Shown here: one piece after another, positions 11,416 to 14,980 of the stretch
How the letters are laid out: every line of letters begins with the position of its first letter
Position numbering within the stretch: position 1 is the first letter of the stretch
Origin: Escherichia phage 235Ecol030PP
Sequence record: PP355091.1
Strand: one strand, 5' to 3'
DNA: 64,000 nt
Program-made: the position numbers and the translations under genes
The notes under the pieces: generated by a model
Told to the model about the DNA's origin: nothing
The model's database searches: none
Seen by the model: the letters and a program-made list of their open reading frames with translations, nothing else

Positions 11416-12460
11416 CATTATATTCAGCATGAGTCGCAAATTCATGCTCGTTTATATGAAACAACAAAATTTGGATAGTCCATAGATATGCAACGTTCTT
11501 TTATAGTGCTAGGATGAAAATTTAGCGCTTTAGCTGCTTCTATATAAGACGTATACTTAATACCGTCAACAACCACATATTCAGGAACTTTATGAATAGT
11601 AGTCTTAATACTCAAAACAAGAGGATGAGTTTCGACTTCACTTTCAGTGCAATTTAAATATTCCGCTGCTTTTTTAAAACTTCTAAAAGTTTTATTTTTA
11701 AGCTTTATCGATACTTGTTTTTTACTTTTTCGACTATTGATATTATTTTGCACATGTTCCTTAGATCTTCCGTTTTTAGCATAATATTCAGCTACAGAAG
11801 ATTTTATATTGTTTTTATGAGATTCGGATAACACTTTACCCTTATGAGCATCTCTTAATTTTTGAATATGTTCTTCAGTATCCGGATGCTTATAAAACTT
11901 TTTACCGCCTATGGATTTATTTAAACATTTTTTGCTATAAAAATATTTACGTATGACCTCTTCTTCATGTTTTAATGCATCTTTATAACTATCAAATGTT
12001 TTTAAAATTATCCATTTAGTAGGTGTATCAGTTTTTAAGCGTTCATTTATATACTTAGATGACGTTGTGTAAGTTTTCCAGTTTGTGGGCTTGTTTTTAA
12101 TTGTTCTAAATTTTTTATAACCGATATAAATGTCGCCATTAGAAAACTTAACTAAGTATGTAAATGCGTCTTTATCTTTTATTTTAGTACAACGTCTTTT
12201 TATCCATTTCATTGTTTCACCTCGTATTCATAAGATAATCTTATTTATACAAGATGACTGCTGCATGTCGCCATGCAGATTAGACTATATCTTCATCTTT
12301 CGATGCCGGCCGTTTCGAATAGCATTAGCTTCTATTCTACACCGCTACATTCATCACGGTTAGTCGTTAGGCATTTAGTTCAAAAGAACATTTAGCACGG
12401 GATTGTCTACTAGAGAGGTTCCCCGTTTAGACCGGTTTTACATGAGCCTGAATTAAATTA
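11416..12460 (-). mobile_element. Group I self-splicing intron in nrdD (sunY-type) carrying I-TevII ORF; boundaries approximate (about +/-10 nt)
   Basis: nrdD reading frame interrupted by about 1 kb; contains GIY-YIG endonuclease ORF; putative P1 pairing (exon ...AUGAGU with intron GCUCAU) near 12461. Confidence 0.7.
11442..12212 (-). CDS. I-TevII: Intron-encoded homing endonuclease I-TevII
   Basis: 256 aa; MKWIKRRCTKIKDKDAFTYLVKFSNGDIYIGYKK... (GIY-YIG-type N-terminus); lies inside nrdD intron as in T4. Confidence 0.85.
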   Translation of the reverse strand: MKWIKRRCTKIKDKDAFTYLVKFSNGDIYIGYKKFRTIKNKPTNWKTYTTSSKYINERLKTDTPTKWIILKTFDSYKDALKHEEEVIRKYFYSKKCLNKSIGGKKFYKHPDTEEHIQKLRDAHKGKVLSESHKNNIKSSVAEYYAKNGRSKEHVQNNINSRKSKKQVSIKLKNKTFRSFKKAAEYLNCTESEVETHPLVLSIKTTIHKVPEYVVVDGIKYTSYIEAAKALNFHPSTIKERCISMDYPNFVVSYKRA

Positions 12461-12998
12461 ACTCATACGCCTGAAACGCGTCATAGACATCTTTTTCTGT
12501 TTTAGATTGAGCATAATTCAACGCATCAGCGATTTGCCATTTTTCTGCATCCTCAATATGTTTTGCATAGGTGCGTTTAACATAAGGAGAAAGTACTTTA
12601 TCTACATTCGCAAAAGTCGTTCCGCCATATTGATGGGAAGCAACCTGTGCAGTAATTTGTGCCATAATTGCAGTAGCAACGCCAATTGATTTAGGAGTTT
12701 CAATCTGTGCATTACCGAGCTTAAATCCGTTCTCAAGCATTCCTTTTAAATCTACTAAACAGCAATTAGTAAATGGAAGAGCAGGGGAATAATCAATATC
12801 GTGCACGTGAATAATTCCGCTTTCATGCGCTTTCATAATAAAAGACGGGACCATATTTTTGGCAATGTGTTTAGACACAATACCAGCCATAAGGTCCCGT
12901 TGAGTTGGAAAAACACGAGAATCTTTATTAGCATTCTCGTTTAAAAGGTCTTTATTAGTTTTATGAATCAATCCTTCAATTTCTTTTTCAATTGTCAT
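12461..12998 (-). CDS. nrdD: Anaerobic ribonucleotide reductase NrdD, exon 1 (5' splice site approximate)
   Basis: MTIEKEIEGLIHKTNKDLLNENANKDSRVFPTQRDLMAGIVSKH...; 4-nt overlap with gene 49 stop. Confidence 0.8.
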
Positions 12999-13468
12999 TT
13001 TAAACTCTTTCTAAGCTGCTTCTTAAATGAAGCTATTAACTGTGTTTTGGTGTCAGATTCATTATATTCAAATCCTCTTTGAAGCATCTCGGCCATCATT
13101 TCCTCTTTTCCTAAACGAGAAAATTCCTTTGATTTATCTCCAACAAAGTTAGGGTGAATATTATTTTGGGTGTAATCGGATTTTAAATAAGTAAGTAAAT
13201 TTTCTAACCATTCAAGATAATCAACACCTTGTCCCTTTAAGCCAGAACGATTAAATTTATGCTTCATTTGACCTTCTGCGGCATTGCAGAGATTACAAAG
13301 CAATCCACGCACCTTTCCTGCTTTTGGTCCATTTAATTCATGGTCATGGTCGAGGTGATTAGCTTGAACATCAGGATTTAGTTCTCGTTGGCAAATTAAG
13401 CATTTACCGTTTTGTGCATTATAAAATTTCTGTTTTTCTTCTTTATATAATTTGCCAGTCAATAACAT
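12995..13468 (-). CDS. 49: Endonuclease VII (Holliday junction resolvase) gp49
   Basis: 157 aa; MLLTGKLYKEEKQKFYNAQNGKCLICQRELNPDVQANHLDHDHELNGPKAGKVRGLLCNLCN matches recalled T4 endo VII. Confidence 0.9.
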   Translation of the reverse strand: MLLTGKLYKEEKQKFYNAQNGKCLICQRELNPDVQANHLDHDHELNGPKAGKVRGLLCNLCNAAEGQMKHKFNRSGLKGQGVDYLEWLENLLTYLKSDYTQNNIHPNFVGDKSKEFSRLGKEEMMAEMLQRGFEYNESDTKTQLIASFKKQLRKSLK

Positions 13469-13507
13469 AATAAAACCCTTACCTTAAATAGATAAGGGTA
13501 TTTATTA

Positions 13508-13556
13508 TTTTCAAGTATTGTAAAACATTCGATGCAATCGTTTATACTGTCGAATC
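13508..13556. repeat. Direct repeat copy 1 (49 bp; partner at 13721-13769)
   Basis: ttttcaagtattgtaaaacattcgatgcaatcgtttatactgtcgaatc versus copy 2 with about 4 mismatches; covers the last 14 codons and stop of two different ORFs. Confidence 0.8.
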
Positions 13557-13687
13557 ATCTTTTTAGTAGGACGAGAATAGGTTCCTACGCAAGTGGTCAT
13601 ATGAGGGTCCGTAGAATGTCCTTTAATAAAAAGTTTCCAAACCTTACCGCCATTTAACTTTTCAGTATAAACCAATTCGGTTTTCAT
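13511..13687 (-). CDS. Small ORF (58 aa) sharing its C-terminal 14 residues with the next gene via a direct repeat
   Basis: MKTELVYTEKLNGGKVWKLFIKGHSTDPHMTTCVGTYSRPTKKMIRQYKRLHRMFYNT; AAGG 8 nt upstream of ATG; not in ORF track. Confidence 0.35.
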   Translation of the reverse strand: MKTELVYTEKLNGGKVWKLFIKGHSTDPHMTTCVGTYSRPTKKMIRQYKRLHRMFYNT

Positions 13688-13720
13688 TAAAATGCCTTGT
13701 CAGAAAAAGAATTTTGAGTT

Positions 13721-13769
13721 TTTTCAAGTATTGTAAAACATTTGATGCAATCGCTTATATTGCCGAATC
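13721..13769. repeat. Direct repeat copy 2 (49 bp; partner at 13508-13556)
   Basis: ttttcaagtattgtaaaacatttgatgcaatcgcttatattgccgaatc. Confidence 0.8.
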
Positions 13770-14227
13770 TTTTGGTCAGAAAAAGAAATTTGATTTTCAA
13801 GCCATTCAATGTATTCTGCGGCAGCTTGCATCAGGTTACCTTCATAGCCATCGTTATTTTCTTGTGCAGCTAATTTAGCTAATGCGTATGAAATACGTTC
13901 ACCTTGAAAATCGGCTTTAGGCTTCTGAACAACTTGATTAGTTTGCTCTACAACTTCTTCAATTTCGCCATTTTCTACTGATTCAGTATTCCACAAACAC
14001 CAATACGTAATTGGCTTATCGTAGATGTTAATAATCTTTCCATCAGAAAGTTCAATTTCAATAATTCCAGTATCAGGTTCTATATCATCTTCACATTCTT
14101 TTGCAAGTTCACGAACTTTAAAGACAGTACCTGCACTAAGTTCCGGCCAGTAATTACATAGCCCTGTATCAGCACGATTAATTCTAAACCACTTATCTAC
14201 TGTAATCATGTCCCATCTCCATATCAA
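13724..14227 (-). CDS. Hypothetical protein (occupies the T4 pin position; identity not established)
   Basis: 167-aa ORF; C-terminus IRQYKRLHQMFYNT duplicated in the small ORF downstream. Confidence 0.5.
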   Translation of the reverse strand: MIWRWDMITVDKWFRINRADTGLCNYWPELSAGTVFKVRELAKECEDDIEPDTGIIEIELSDGKIINIYDKPITYWCLWNTESVENGEIEEVVEQTNQVVQKPKADFQGERISYALAKLAAQENNDGYEGNLMQAAAEYIEWLENQISFSDQKIRQYKRLHQMFYNT

Positions 14228-14331
14228 TTAAGTCATTTATCATTGGTTCATTATACACCGTTTCTTCATCAGTGTAAACCGGTTCTTCCGGCTCTGGCTC
14301 TACAGTTTCCCATCTAGCCGCCCACCAAGGT

Positions 14332-14541
14332 TTAACCCCGAAGCTTATTAAGTTCTTCATAATCAATCCAGGATTCTAATCCTGATGGCAAATCAGATTC
14401 AATTTCCCAAAGAAGCTCTTCAATTTTCTGAAGACGATCTAGTTCTTCGGCTGGAATAGTAACCATTGATGGAGTTCTTGATACACTAATATCGTAAATC
14501 ATATTTACCCCAGTTTGACCATACAATCGCCGTATTTCCAC
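14332..14541 (-). CDS. Hypothetical protein
   Basis: 69-aa ORF. Confidence 0.4.
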   Translation of the reverse strand: MEIRRLYGQTGVNMIYDISVSRTPSMVTIPAEELDRLQKIEELLWEIESDLPSGLESWIDYEELNKLRG

Positions 14542-14720
14542 TTAGAAATAGACTTTTCACCGTTAGAATAATAAACTTCGAGTTTAGCACGATTATTTTT
14601 AATTTGAATAACCTTGGCTGTCATCAAAGTTCCATACCCGTAATAAACTGCAACTTCATCACCTACATATACCGCGCTTCCGCGGTAATCATGGATATAA
14701 TCAGTTCCTTCGAGAATCAT
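14505..14720 (-). CDS. Hypothetical protein
   Basis: 71-aa ORF, 4-nt overlap with nrdC stop. Confidence 0.45.
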   Translation of the reverse strand: MILEGTDYIHDYRGSAVYVGDEVAVYYGYGTLMTAKVIQIKNNRAKLEVYYSNGEKSISKWKYGDCMVKLG

Positions 14721-14980
14721 TTAAAGTATTCCCGCAATTGGTCAAATCCACCAATATGACTTCCATCAGGAGCAAATACCTGAGGCATCGTCAATCCGAT
14801 TTGAGTATCACGACCTAGTTTAGTCAGAAGCTCAGCAATTTTCTCATCATCAAAAACACCTTTTTCCGGCATAATGTTGATAAATTCAAACGGCTGTTTC
14901 TTCACAGTCAAAAGACGTTTTGCATTATCACAATACACACATTTATGAATGTTGCTATCATAACCATATACTTTAAACAT
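14717..14980 (-). CDS. nrdC: Thioredoxin/glutaredoxin NrdC
   Basis: 87 aa; MFKVYGYDSNIHKCVYCDNAKRLL (CVYC active site); matches recalled T4 NrdC. Confidence 0.9.
   Translation of the reverse strand: MFKVYGYDSNIHKCVYCDNAKRLLTVKKQPFEFINIMPEKGVFDDEKIAELLTKLGRDTQIGLTMPQVFAPDGSHIGGFDQLREYFK

What the first reader, a model, noticed from the sequence alone, without database searches (positions are those of the whole stretch)
13508..13769. 49-bp direct repeat next to gene 49 duplicates the last 14 codons and stop of a gene onto a second small ORF
Copies at 13508-13556 and 13721-13769 are about 92% identical and 213 bp apart. Both provide the C-terminus IRQYKRLH(R/Q)MFYNT plus stop and about 10 nt of 3' flank, to the 167-aa ORF 13724-14227 and to an unlisted 58-aa ORF 13511-13687. 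This could be a partial gene duplication, a recombination scar, or a conserved RNA or protein signal used twice.
Basis: seen in the sequence. Interest (0 to 1): 0.5.

Follow-up and report, generated by a model that had tools for sequence, protein, structure and literature searches.

The report
Pin gene carries its neighbour's tail
The 49-bp repeat is real: it is the natural 3' end of a small conserved phage gene (DUF7279), present once in that gene and once as a piece fused long ago onto the Lon-protease-inhibitor gene pin, so it is a recombination scar in a variable stretch of T4-like genomes rather than a reused signal.

Summary
The repeat is confirmed: 13508-13556 and 13721-13769 match at 45/49 positions, 213 bp apart, far beyond chance. 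The window is a T4-like phage (Tequatrovirus, closest D5505 and RB32). The 58-aa ORF is a real gene of Pfam family DUF7279. The repeated 14 codons are that family's own conserved C-terminal helix. They are foreign to Pin, whose profiles end before the tail and whose native end elsewhere is ...FSDRAF*.

About 508 sequenced relatives fall into four architectures:
- C (~74, ancestral): native pin, then ORF58, then gene 49.
- B (~252, including T4): a 137-bp deletion fused pin to the ORF58 tail, and ORF58 is lost.
- D (~69): ORF58 is cleanly deleted.
- A (113, this window): fused pin plus a 213-bp cassette holding a relic of the native pin end (TQNSFSDKAF*), an intact ORF58 and its tail.

The units are bounded by CTTGAAA microhomology. 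The repeat shows no RNA structure and no promoter. On pin, the tail is losing residues that are invariant in DUF7279. This is an ordinary mechanism, with one useful nugget: the C-terminus of the T4 PinA prototype is chimeric.

The parts
13508..13556 (-). Repeat copy T': the native 3' end of ORF58 (last 14 codons IRQYKRLHRMFYNT, TGA stop 13511-13513, 3 nt of flank).
   Evidence: The Pfam DUF7279 profile (positions 1-53 of 53) covers ORF58 residues 7-56, which includes this tail. The tail is conserved in Dhakavirus, Gaprivervirus, Mosigvirus and Gelderlandvirus homologues. The residues marked I45 R46 K49 R50 H52 R53 F55 are invariant in alignment A1.
13721..13769 (-). Repeat copy T: the same 14 codons (IRQYKRLHQMFYNT) plus the stop (13724-13726), fused in frame to the end of pin. 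This is the captured copy.
   Evidence: The Pin profiles stop before it (Pfam PF10465 ends at residue 141, PHROG 2167 at 146), and pin residues 147-161 hit the ORF58 family PHROG 3272 at positions 44-58. Tail-less pins (148 aa...SDRAF*) are common in Tequatrovirus, and in other genera pin also ends without the tail, except for one independently fused Mosigvirus-type sequence, P0028.
13511..13687 (-). ORF58, a 58-aa DUF7279 protein (RB32ORF078c homologue). Predicted fold: three beta strands plus a C-terminal helix at residues 42-56, which is the repeated tail.
   Evidence: Pfam DUF7279 E = 3e-17, 62.7 bits against a cutoff of 24.5. PHROG 3272 E = 3e-34. tblastn finds it in 369 phage records. 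It is annotated as a CDS in RB32, UFV10, EcNP1 and L14. AF2 best model pLDDT 81.7; the other four models score 52-63.
13724..14209 (-). pin (PinA, inhibitor of host Lon protease), 161 aa. It is a chimera: the Pin body (residues 1 to about 146) plus a junction codon or two plus the DUF7279 tail.
   Evidence: Pfam PF10465 Inhibitor_I24 E = 1.6e-48. Annotated in T4 and RB32. The fusion junction GAC C[G/A]A A[T/A]G ATT is shared by every A and B form examined.
13687..13722 (-). Relic of the native pin 3' end, now non-coding spacer. It reads in frame as K TQNSFSDKAF*, with its TAA overlapping the ORF58 ATG (TAATG). It contains repeat X' (13699-13721).
   Evidence: and 72 translations. It is homologous to the pin end plus ORF58 start of the C forms UFV10 and EcNP1 (...TQ(K/I)SFSDRAF*, TTTTAATG). 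C-type junction queries hit A forms at about 88% identity.
13775..13797 (-). Repeat X: the pin codons (E)NQISFSD immediately before the fusion point. It is the partner of the relic X' (21/23, 76 bp apart).
   Evidence: Family D3. The C form is 77 bp shorter than the A form, which matches the X/X' spacing.
13718..13728 (-). Cassette junction: CTTGAAA at the end of T followed by an A-run. The same heptamer ends T' (13509-13515) and precedes X inside pin (13795-13801).
   Evidence: One search lists the three CTTGAAA sites, which bound the 73-nt and 213-nt units. The A-run is 6 long here and 11 long in phage L14.
13475..13499 (-). Gene 49 leader hairpin, just downstream of T'. It is not part of the repeat, but it sets the limit for viable deletions on that side.
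   Evidence: Terminator-like stem of 10 pairs. The fold of 13440-13560 gives -25.6 kcal/mol, z = -3.1. It is retained in all four architectures.
12995..13468 (-). Gene 49 (endonuclease VII), the conserved right-hand anchor of the variable segment.
   Evidence: Annotated in T4 and RB32. Identity to relatives is 96-99%.

Best explanation
The repeat is a scar of two successive illegitimate recombination events in the small variable segment between pin and the essential gene 49 of Tequatrovirus phages.

Ancestral arrangement (form C). This arrangement is still found in about 74 Tequatrovirus records, and the same pin-ORF58-gene 49 order is found in Mosigvirus, Dhakavirus and Gaprivervirus. Pin ends ...FSDRAF*. 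Its stop overlaps the ATG of a 58-aa DUF7279 gene (ORF58). The C-terminal helix of ORF58 is ...MIRQYKRLHRMFYNT, and it is followed within about 10 nt by the gene 49 leader.

Event 1. A 137-bp deletion removed the pin stop and the ORF58 body and joined pin in frame to the last 15 codons of ORF58 (SDR|MIRQ...). This produced the 161-aa PinA of T4 (form B). The junction is the same in all A and B genomes examined, so this happened once.

Event 2 (inferred). A 213-bp unit from a phage still carrying the ancestral arrangement was inserted right after the fused pin stop. The unit consisted of the last codons of native pin, ORF58 and its tail. The insertion came either from an unequal crossover at the heptamer CTTGAAA or from integration of an excised circle through the tail homology. 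It produced form A, which is this window.

The two 49-bp copies are therefore two alleles of the same ORF58 3' end placed in tandem.

Consequences:
- The T4 PinA C-terminus is not part of the Pin family.
- In form A the 49-bp repeat (and the 23-bp X repeat) makes ORF58 (or the pin tail) excisable by the phage's homology-driven recombination.
- The repeat itself has no separate RNA or regulatory role.

Shown directly: the repeat, the four architectures and their counts, that the tail is native to DUF7279, the relic, and the shared junction. Inferred: the order of events and the CTTGAAA mechanism.
For: - Repeat and chance.
- Tail native to ORF58: the Pfam DUF7279 profile spans it. Homologues in four other genera carry RPTK+MIRQ(Y/F)KR.HR.FY. 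It is invariant in A1. It forms the only helix of the AF2 model.
- Tail foreign to Pin: the Pin profiles end at residues 141-146 and the tail hits PHROG 3272. The native end ...WLE.Q..FS..F* is conserved across genera.
- Four architectures aligned.
- Counts from junction-spanning BLAST: A 113, A+B 365, D 69, A+C 187. They sum to about 508, against 505 full-length matches.
- Relic TQNSFSDKAF* with the TAATG overlap.
- Shared fusion junction.
- Order of events: the pin tail equals the EcNP1-type ORF58 allele at 3/3 synonymous sites, while T' is a different allele. The A cassette is >=98.8% identical in about 115 records and 131/131 identical in three genomes whose flanks differ by 2-4%.
- CTTGAAA lies at all three unit boundaries.
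- Independent parallels: SHSML-52-1 lost pin by a crossover between two DUF7279 tails, and P0028 is a second pin-tail fusion.
- T4-type recombination needs less than 50 bp of homology (Singer et al. 1982, as cited in PMC2839356).
Against: - The order of events is not proven. A tandem duplication in a C-type genome, followed by deletion in the first unit, and then T/T' recombination giving T4's form, uses the same junctions.
- The donor C-type allele of the A cassette is not among the sampled phages.
- The observed junction has three more A's than a simple CTTGAAA crossover predicts.
- No experimental data exist here on ORF58 expression or on excision.
- The near-fixation of HR->HQ in pin tails could mean the tail has acquired a role on pin.
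Confidence: 0.8

Rival explanations
1. The two-copy form A is the older form. A tandem duplication of the unit [CTTGAAA - pin end - ORF58 - tail] arose in an ancestral genome. The ORF58 body was then deleted from the first unit. The single-copy T4 form arose later, possibly repeatedly, by homologous recombination between the two 49-bp repeats.
For: T4 and about 250 relatives are exactly 213-214 bp shorter, with one repeat copy left. The C form differs from the A form by the X/X' spacing. T4 recombination works on less than 50 bp of homology. 4E10 and ECO95 carry a pin tail with the T'-type CGA codon, as a crossover between the third and fourth diagnostic sites would give.
Against: After a duplication, T and T' should start identical. 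Instead T matches another extant ORF58 allele (EcNP1-type) at 3/3 synonymous sites, and T' belongs to a distinct allele. All five IMG/VR and T4 B forms carry pure T-type diagnostics. 4E10's tail plus leader is identical to the EcNP1 type, including the GGG-TTTATT leader variant, which fits an ancestral B state rather than descent from A. The A cassette is nearly invariant, suggesting it is young, while B includes the classical phage T4 itself.
Confidence: 0.3
2. The repeated tail is a portable functional peptide, for example a basic amphipathic helix that binds Lon or another shared partner. Selection keeps it on both proteins, so the duplication is adaptive rather than a neutral scar.
For: The tail is the most conserved part of DUF7279. 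DUF7279 genes sit next to pin in three genera beyond Tequatrovirus (Mosigvirus, Dhakavirus, Gaprivervirus), and in Mosigvirus two paralogues flank pin. The pin tail is kept in frame in 365 records. An independent pin-tail fusion exists (P0028). The way PinA binds Lon is still unknown (PMC8835725).
Against: About 143 Tequatrovirus records, and the pins of other genera apart from the single fused P0028, lack the tail. In pin copies, residues invariant in DUF7279 are replaced (R46->Q in T4, H52->N, R53->Q), giving 4 distinct non-synonymous changes against 1 synonymous within the compared tail codons. ORF58 tails show 3 distinct synonymous changes against 1 non-synonymous. AF2 gives the pin tail low confidence, as a plain helical extension (pLDDT 47-63). 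Gene order is conserved in these phages anyway.
Confidence: 0.1
3. The repeat is a cis-acting nucleic-acid signal used twice, such as an RNA structure, a promoter, a processing site, or a PeSL-like promoter/stem-loop cassette.
For: Identity is at the DNA level and includes the stop codon and a few flanking bases. T' lies just upstream of the gene 49 leader hairpin.
Against: The repeat units fold no better than shuffles (z = -1.18 and +0.51), and the T region with its flanks folds worse than shuffles (z = +2.1). No sigma-70-like promoter or terminator-like site falls inside either copy. D-form phages (69 records) delete nearly all of T' and keep gene 49. Three of the four differences between the two copies are synonymous, the pattern expected for a protein-coding constraint.
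Confidence: 0.03

Closest known systems
PeSL-mediated modular shuffling in T4-type phages (Arbiol et al. 2010, PMC2839356; Comeau et al. 2014, PMC4122927)
   Same: A small accessory ORF in a variable region is flanked by direct repeats of about 50 bp. Close relatives carry a single repeat copy and lack the ORF. Excision as a mini-circle and re-insertion through the repeat would interconvert the forms.
   Different: PeSLs are intergenic promoter-plus-stem-loop cassettes. Here the repeat is coding sequence (the last 14 codons plus the stop) with no promoter-like site or stem-loop. It arose from a gene fusion, not from a dispersed regulatory motif. It occurs only at this locus in the window.
Gene fusion by deletion between neighbouring phage genes, and deletions between short repeats in T4
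   Same: A deletion with 0-3 nt of microhomology joins two adjacent reading frames in frame. Forms B and D and the Mosigvirus protein P0028 are three independent deletions ending inside or next to the same tail.
   Different: Here the fused product is the laboratory prototype protein (T4 PinA). The lost gene was later put back next to the fusion, creating the tandem repeat.
Recombination between DUF7279 paralogues in Mosigvirus
   Same: Two direct copies of the DUF7279 tail flank a segment (there it is pin itself). One natural genome is the clean crossover product within the tail, at ...ACTTTTATA.
   Different: In Mosigvirus the repeats belong to two complete paralogous genes. In the window one of the two copies is only a 15-codon fragment grafted onto pin.
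T4 PinA, inhibitor of E. coli Lon protease (Pfam PF10465 / MEROPS I24; Skorupski 1988 and Hilliard 1998, as cited in PMC8835725)
   Same: The window's pin is 97% identical in its body to T4 pin and has the same 161-aa fused form.
   Different: None for the protein itself. The new point is that residues 147-161 of this prototype lie outside the family-conserved Pin core.

Membership tests
Pfam DUF7279 (PF23945) / PHROG 3272, for ORF58 | Profile HMM match above the curated gathering score across the whole domain, including the C-terminal basic helix. | tested here: met
   62.7 bits against a cutoff of 24.5, E = 3e-17, profile positions 1-53 of 53 on residues 7-56. PHROG 3272 E = 3e-34 over residues 1-58.
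PinA peptidase inhibitor (Pfam PF10465, Inhibitor_I24), for the 161-aa gene | Profile HMM match above the gathering score. | tested here: met
   164.5 bits against a cutoff of 27. The match covers residues 4-141 only, and the tail at 147-161 lies outside the profile.
PinA peptidase inhibitor | Inhibition of Lon ATPase and proteolysis. | not testable with these tools
   Known for T4 PinA from the literature. It has not been tested for tail-less 148-aa pins.
PeSL cassette (promoter-early stem-loop) | A sigma-70-like early promoter inside the repeat. | tested here: not met
   None of the 6 promoter-like sites in 12900-14400 lies in either repeat copy, and the count equals that of shuffles.
PeSL cassette (promoter-early stem-loop) | A stable stem-loop inside the repeat, and an intergenic location. 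| tested here: not met
   Fold z-scores are -1.18 and +0.51. The repeat is 42 nt of coding sequence plus the stop.
Target-site duplication of a mobile element or homing-endonuclease insertion | The inserted segment encodes a transposase, integrase or homing endonuclease, and the duplication is short and non-coding. | tested here: not met
   The 213-bp unit encodes only the 58-aa DUF7279 protein with no nuclease domain. The 'duplication' is two diverged alleles of a gene end.
Direct-repeat-flanked indel produced by phage recombination | Close relatives exist with exactly one repeat copy and without the intervening segment. | tested here: met
   T4 and four IMG/VR genomes are 213-214 bp shorter with one copy. 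About 252 such records are inferred.
Direct-repeat-flanked indel produced by phage recombination | De novo deletion or excision between the repeats observed in a phage stock. | not testable with these tools
   This needs PCR or inverse PCR, or deep sequencing of an A-form phage lysate.

The most novel reading that the evidence does not exclude
The DUF7279 C-terminal helix is a transferable functional module, for example a Lon-docking pseudo-degron or another host-factor-binding helix. On this reading, pin kept it because it changes how PinA engages Lon. ORF58 would then be a second, unrecognised player in the same anti-Lon (or anti-proteolysis) function, and the rapid spread of the near-identical ORF58 cassette through diverged Tequatrovirus backgrounds would reflect selection for it.
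Probability: 0.08. Interest if true: 0.6.

Novelty: new member of a known kind. Interest (0 to 1): 0.3.

Why it matters
- It shows that the biochemically studied T4 PinA (161 aa) is a chimera. Its last 15 residues come from a neighbouring gene that T4 has lost, and they are absent from about 140 close relatives and from nearly all pins seen in other genera. Anyone mapping the still-unknown PinA-Lon interface, or designing constructs, should treat residues 147-161 as non-family sequence.
- It gives a fully resolved four-allele example, with counts over about 500 genomes, of how microhomology deletions and short-repeat recombination delete, fuse and re-insert small accessory genes next to an essential gene in T4-like phages.
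- It provides an easy experimental system: a 213-bp excision between 49-bp repeats in RB32- or D5505-type phages.
- It does not reveal a new kind of element.

Tried and rejected
- RNA folding of both repeat copies and their contexts gave no structure beyond shuffles. Only the known-type gene 49 leader hairpin, outside the repeat, stands out.
- The sigma-70 promoter and terminator scan found nothing inside the repeat.
- PDB sequence searches for Pin and ORF58 gave no hits.
- Foldseek of the ORF58 model against the PDB and viral models found only another DUF7279 member (Salmonella phage S16). All PDB matches had E > 0.2, so no function can be inferred.
- The exhaustive HMMER search of 1.8 billion representatives with ORF58 returned three short proteins that look like family members. 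The other five hits are long proteins matched over many short stretches, which I judged spurious.
- The AF2 model of Pin has low confidence (pLDDT 67.5, tail 47-63), so I drew no structural conclusion about the tail on Pin.
- Literature: there are no papers mentioning DUF7279. The T4-related genome review and the PeSL paper do not mention pin's tail. Skorupski 1988 (PMC211243) is not held.
- Gene conversion keeping the copies alike is rejected, because the same four differences are present in all four A genomes read.
- A frameshift or read-through role for the A-run after the pin stop is rejected, because it lies after the stop and read-through would add only seven codons before the next stop (frame 1).

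Full report
**1. What the window is**

The region is from a T4-like phage of the genus Tequatrovirus. Bases 12990-14300 are 99.2% identical to phage D5505 and 97.5% identical to RB32, and they match 696 phage records. All genes here are on the minus strand:
- nrdC: 14717-14980
- several small ORFs
- pin (PinA, Lon inhibitor): 13724-14209
- a 58-aa ORF: 13511-13687
- gene 49 (endonuclease VII): 12995-13468
- the 5' part of nrdD

**2.

- Copies 13508-13556 and 13721-13769 match at 45 of 49 positions, 213 bp apart.
- No other direct repeat of this quality with spacing under 3 kb exists in the 64 kb.
- The chance expectation over the whole window is about 5e-12.
- Both copies encode IRQYKRLH(R/Q)MFYNT plus a TGA stop.
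- Perfect identity extends only 3-4 nt past the stop. The next 14 nt match 8/14, so "about 10 nt of flank" is an overstatement.
- The real pin gene is 161 aa from the ATG at 14209. The 167-aa version is the mechanical TTG ORF.
- A second repeat is interleaved with the first: 13699-13721 and 13775-13797, 21/23, 76 bp apart.

**3. Who owns the tail**

The tail is native to ORF58:
- ORF58 is a member of Pfam DUF7279 (62.7 bits against a cutoff of 24.5). The 53-position profile runs through residue 56, so the tail is part of the family domain. PHROG 3272 matches residues 1-58.
- Homologues in Dhakavirus (JS10), Gaprivervirus (VR7), Mosigvirus (G53, SHSML-52-1) and Gelderlandvirus (UTK0003) all end with RPTK+MIRQ(Y/F)KR.HR.FY... 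In the first three genera they sit directly upstream of gene 49.
- In an alignment of ten family members, I45, R46, K49, R50, H52, R53 and F55 are invariant.
- The AF2 model has three strands and one helix at residues 42-56, and that helix is the tail. The best model has pLDDT 81.7, but the other four score 52-63, so I treat this as moderate evidence.

The tail is foreign to Pin:
- The Pin profiles stop at residue 141 (Pfam PF10465) or 146 (PHROG 2167). Pin residues 147-161 instead hit the ORF58 family, PHROG 3272, at positions 44-58.
- Pins from other genera, and many Tequatrovirus pins, end ...WLE.Q..FS(D/S)(R/K).F* with no tail.

So the tail is native to ORF58 and foreign to Pin, the reverse of the direction implied by the finding's title.

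**4. Four architectures**

Alignment of the pin-to-gene 49 interval shows four forms:

| Form | Examples | Structure |
|---|---|---|
| C | UFV10, EcNP1 | Pin ends ...SDRAF*, its TAA overlaps the ORF58 ATG (TTTTAATG), then ORF58 with its tail, then the gene 49 leader |
| B | T4, 4E10 and four IMG/VR genomes | Pin ...SD(R/Q)(M/K)IRQYKRLH.MFYNT*, no ORF58, 213-214 bp shorter than the window |
| D | KIT06 | Native pin end joined directly to ...ATACTTGAAAATAATAAATA, with neither ORF58 nor the tail |
| A | window, RB32, L14 and one IMG/VR genome | Fused pin, then a 36-nt spacer, then ORF58 with its tail |

Junction-spanning queries of about 62 nt at E <= 1e-10 give these counts:
- A junction: 113 records.
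- Pin/tail fusion junction (A+B): 365 records, so B is about 252.
- D junction: 69 records.
- Native pin end / ORF58 start (C, plus the relic in A): 187 records, so C is about 74.

The total of about 508 matches the 505 records that cover at least 80% of the original query.

**5. The spacer is a relic**

In the window, 13687-13722 reads in frame as K-TQNSFSDKAF*, with the TAA overlapping the ORF58 ATG. That is the native pin C-terminus and its stop/start overlap, now stranded downstream of the fused pin's stop. Form A therefore contains one fused pin end plus a complete copy of the ancestral segment "pin end - ORF58 - tail". The heptamer CTTGAAA sits at all three unit boundaries: 13795 inside pin, 13722 at the end of T, and 13509 at the end of T'. 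The A-run at the junction is unstable: 6 A's here and 11 in phage L14.

**6. Reconstructing the events**

*Form B.* The T4 junction GAC CGA | ATG ATT keeps the Arg codon of the native ...SDRAF end and the Met-Ile of ORF58's ...KKMIRQ. A single 137-bp deletion in a C-type genome explains form B. The same junction, plus one or two point changes (CGA>CAA, ATG>AAG), is present in every A and B genome read, so the fusion arose once.

*Form D.* This is an independent 168-bp deletion at an AAT / TTTTA microhomology.

*Order of A and B.* Three observations bear on it:
- The pin tail is identical to the ORF58 tail of EcNP1-type C phages at all three synonymous diagnostic sites, differing only by CGA>CAA (R>Q). 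About 26 C-form records carry that exact tail, and two B forms (4E10, ECO95) still have CGA.
- The T' copy belongs to a different allele (CGA, CAG, AAA). Two copies made by a tandem duplication would have started identical, so the hybrid make-up favours [quoted passage not shown]. The route would be an unequal crossover at CTTGAAA, or integration of an excised circle through the tail homology.
- The A cassette is remarkably uniform. It is >=98.8% identical in about 115 records, against <=93% for C alleles. The ORF58 body is 131/131 identical in three A genomes whose pin bodies and gene 49 differ by 2-4%. This suggests a recent origin and spread.

I put about 0.6-0.65 on this order. The alternative, A first with T4's form produced by recombination between the repeats, uses the same junctions and stays open at about 0.3.

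**7. The repeat is not a signal used twice**

- The repeat units fold no better than shuffles (z = -1.18 and +0.51). Only the gene 49 leader hairpin at 13475-13499, outside the repeat, is significant (z = -3.1).
- No promoter-like site lies in either copy.
- D-form phages delete almost all of T' and are common.
- At the protein level, ORF58 tails differ from each other mostly by synonymous changes (3 distinct synonymous against 1 non-synonymous).
- Pin tails show 4 distinct non-synonymous changes against 1 synonymous within the compared codons, plus a CGA>CAA (R>Q) change in the junction codon just upstream. Three of the in-tail changes hit positions invariant in DUF7279 (R46>Q in T4, H52>N, R53>Q).
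- The sample is small, but it points to relaxed or altered constraint on the grafted copy.
- AF2 draws the tail on Pin as a low-confidence continuation of the last helix.

**8. Independent parallels**

- In Mosigvirus G53, two DUF7279 paralogues flank pin. SHSML-52-1 is a clean chimera of the upstream paralogue and the last codons of the downstream one, with the crossover in ...ACTTTTATA and with pin deleted.
- A Mosigvirus-type Pin (P0028) ends ...EYLERR|FHRDFYNVY. This is a second, independent pin-tail fusion, at an ACGTTT microhomology inferred by comparison with the Mosigvirus G53 sequences.
- P0027 is a read-through fusion of the upstream paralogue to pin.

The recurring survival of the tail is best explained by its position. 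The essential gene 49 leader starts about 10 nt after the stop, so deletions that remove ORF58 can only end inside or just before the tail. This last point is inference.

**9. Comparison with known systems**

The closest described mechanism is PeSL-mediated modular shuffling in T4-type phages. There, accessory ORFs flanked by repeats of about 50 bp are excised as mini-circles and re-inserted, and T4 recombination is said to need less than 50 bp of homology (PMC2839356). The logic is the same, but the defining PeSL features were tested and are not met: promoter, stem-loop, intergenic location and dispersed copies. The case is also not a target-site duplication, because the cassette carries no nuclease or transposase.

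The function of DUF7279 remains unknown:
- no PDB homologue;
- no informative fold match;
- no literature;
- the family appears confined to Tevenvirinae.

How PinA binds Lon is still unresolved in the literature I could read (PMC8835725). I found no paper noting that its C-terminus is borrowed. The RB32 GenBank note "similar to ... pin" for ORF078c shows the similarity had been seen.

**10. Verdict**

This is a real and well-explained feature. It is a recombination scar and gene-fusion remnant in a variable region, with a population-level four-allele polymorphism. The mechanism is ordinary for T4-like phages. The specific point that the T4 PinA prototype is chimeric appears to be new and is of practical use.

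- Interest: 0.3.
- Novelty: new member of a known kind.
- Most novel reading not excluded: the tail is a transferable functional helix, for example Lon-directed. Probability about 0.08; interest if true 0.6.

Noticed in passing
L007 906-1076 and 1501-1680 (Mosigvirus G53); L008 1501-1671 (SHSML-52-1); L022: In Mosigvirus, pin is flanked by two DUF7279 paralogues. SHSML-52-1 (and the IMG/VR locus L022) lack pin and carry a chimeric paralogue whose crossover lies in the shared tail sequence ...ACTTTTATA. This is a natural deletion between DUF7279 tails.
   Followed up: yes
P0028 (141 aa) and P0027 (191 aa): P0028 is a Mosigvirus-type Pin fused to the last 9 residues (FHRDFYNVY) of its downstream DUF7279 gene. 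P0027 is an upstream DUF7279 paralogue fused by read-through to Pin. Each is a single metagenomic or Logan sequence, so assembly error is not excluded.
   Followed up: partly
window 13718-13723; L057 (phage L14) about 745-760: The A-run right after the pin stop, at the cassette junction, varies in length: 6 A's counting the A of TGA in the window, and 11 in L14.
   Followed up: partly
window 13475-13499 (minus strand), with AATAAATA just upstream: There is a strong hairpin in the gene 49 leader that pairs the region before the start codon (z = -3.1). It is annotated as a 'terminator' in several records. From memory, this corresponds to the hairpin and late-promoter arrangement described for T4 gene 49 by Barth et al. 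1988. I did not check that here.
   Followed up: partly
window 11442-12212 (minus strand): A 256-aa ORF with a SegE-like GIY-YIG domain and a NUMOD1 motif (a homing endonuclease) lies just after the 181-aa 5' part of nrdD (12453-12998). Some relatives are annotated with a 'homing endonuclease' here and others are not.
   Followed up: partly
window 14332-14541 (minus strand): A 69-aa ORF gives a weak, sub-threshold Pfam hit to the T7 gp5.9 RecBCD inhibitor (PF25708, 20.2 bits against a cutoff of 24.5, over 19 residues only). This is probably chance.
   Followed up: no
window 13557-13723 compared with about 115 phage records: The ORF58 cassette of two-copy phages is nearly invariant (>=98.8% identical; 131/131 in the ORF58 body of three genomes), while the flanking pin and gene 49 differ by 2-4%. 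No single-copy (C-form) phage carries this allele. This suggests a recent spread from an unsampled donor.
   Followed up: partly
L054 (phage 4E10) and L056 (ECO95 1-6-1), pin tail: Only these two of about 365 fused pins keep the ORF58-type Arg codon (CAT CGA ATG). All the others have CAA (Gln). This is either the ancestral state of the fusion or a product of exchange with an ORF58 tail.
   Followed up: partly
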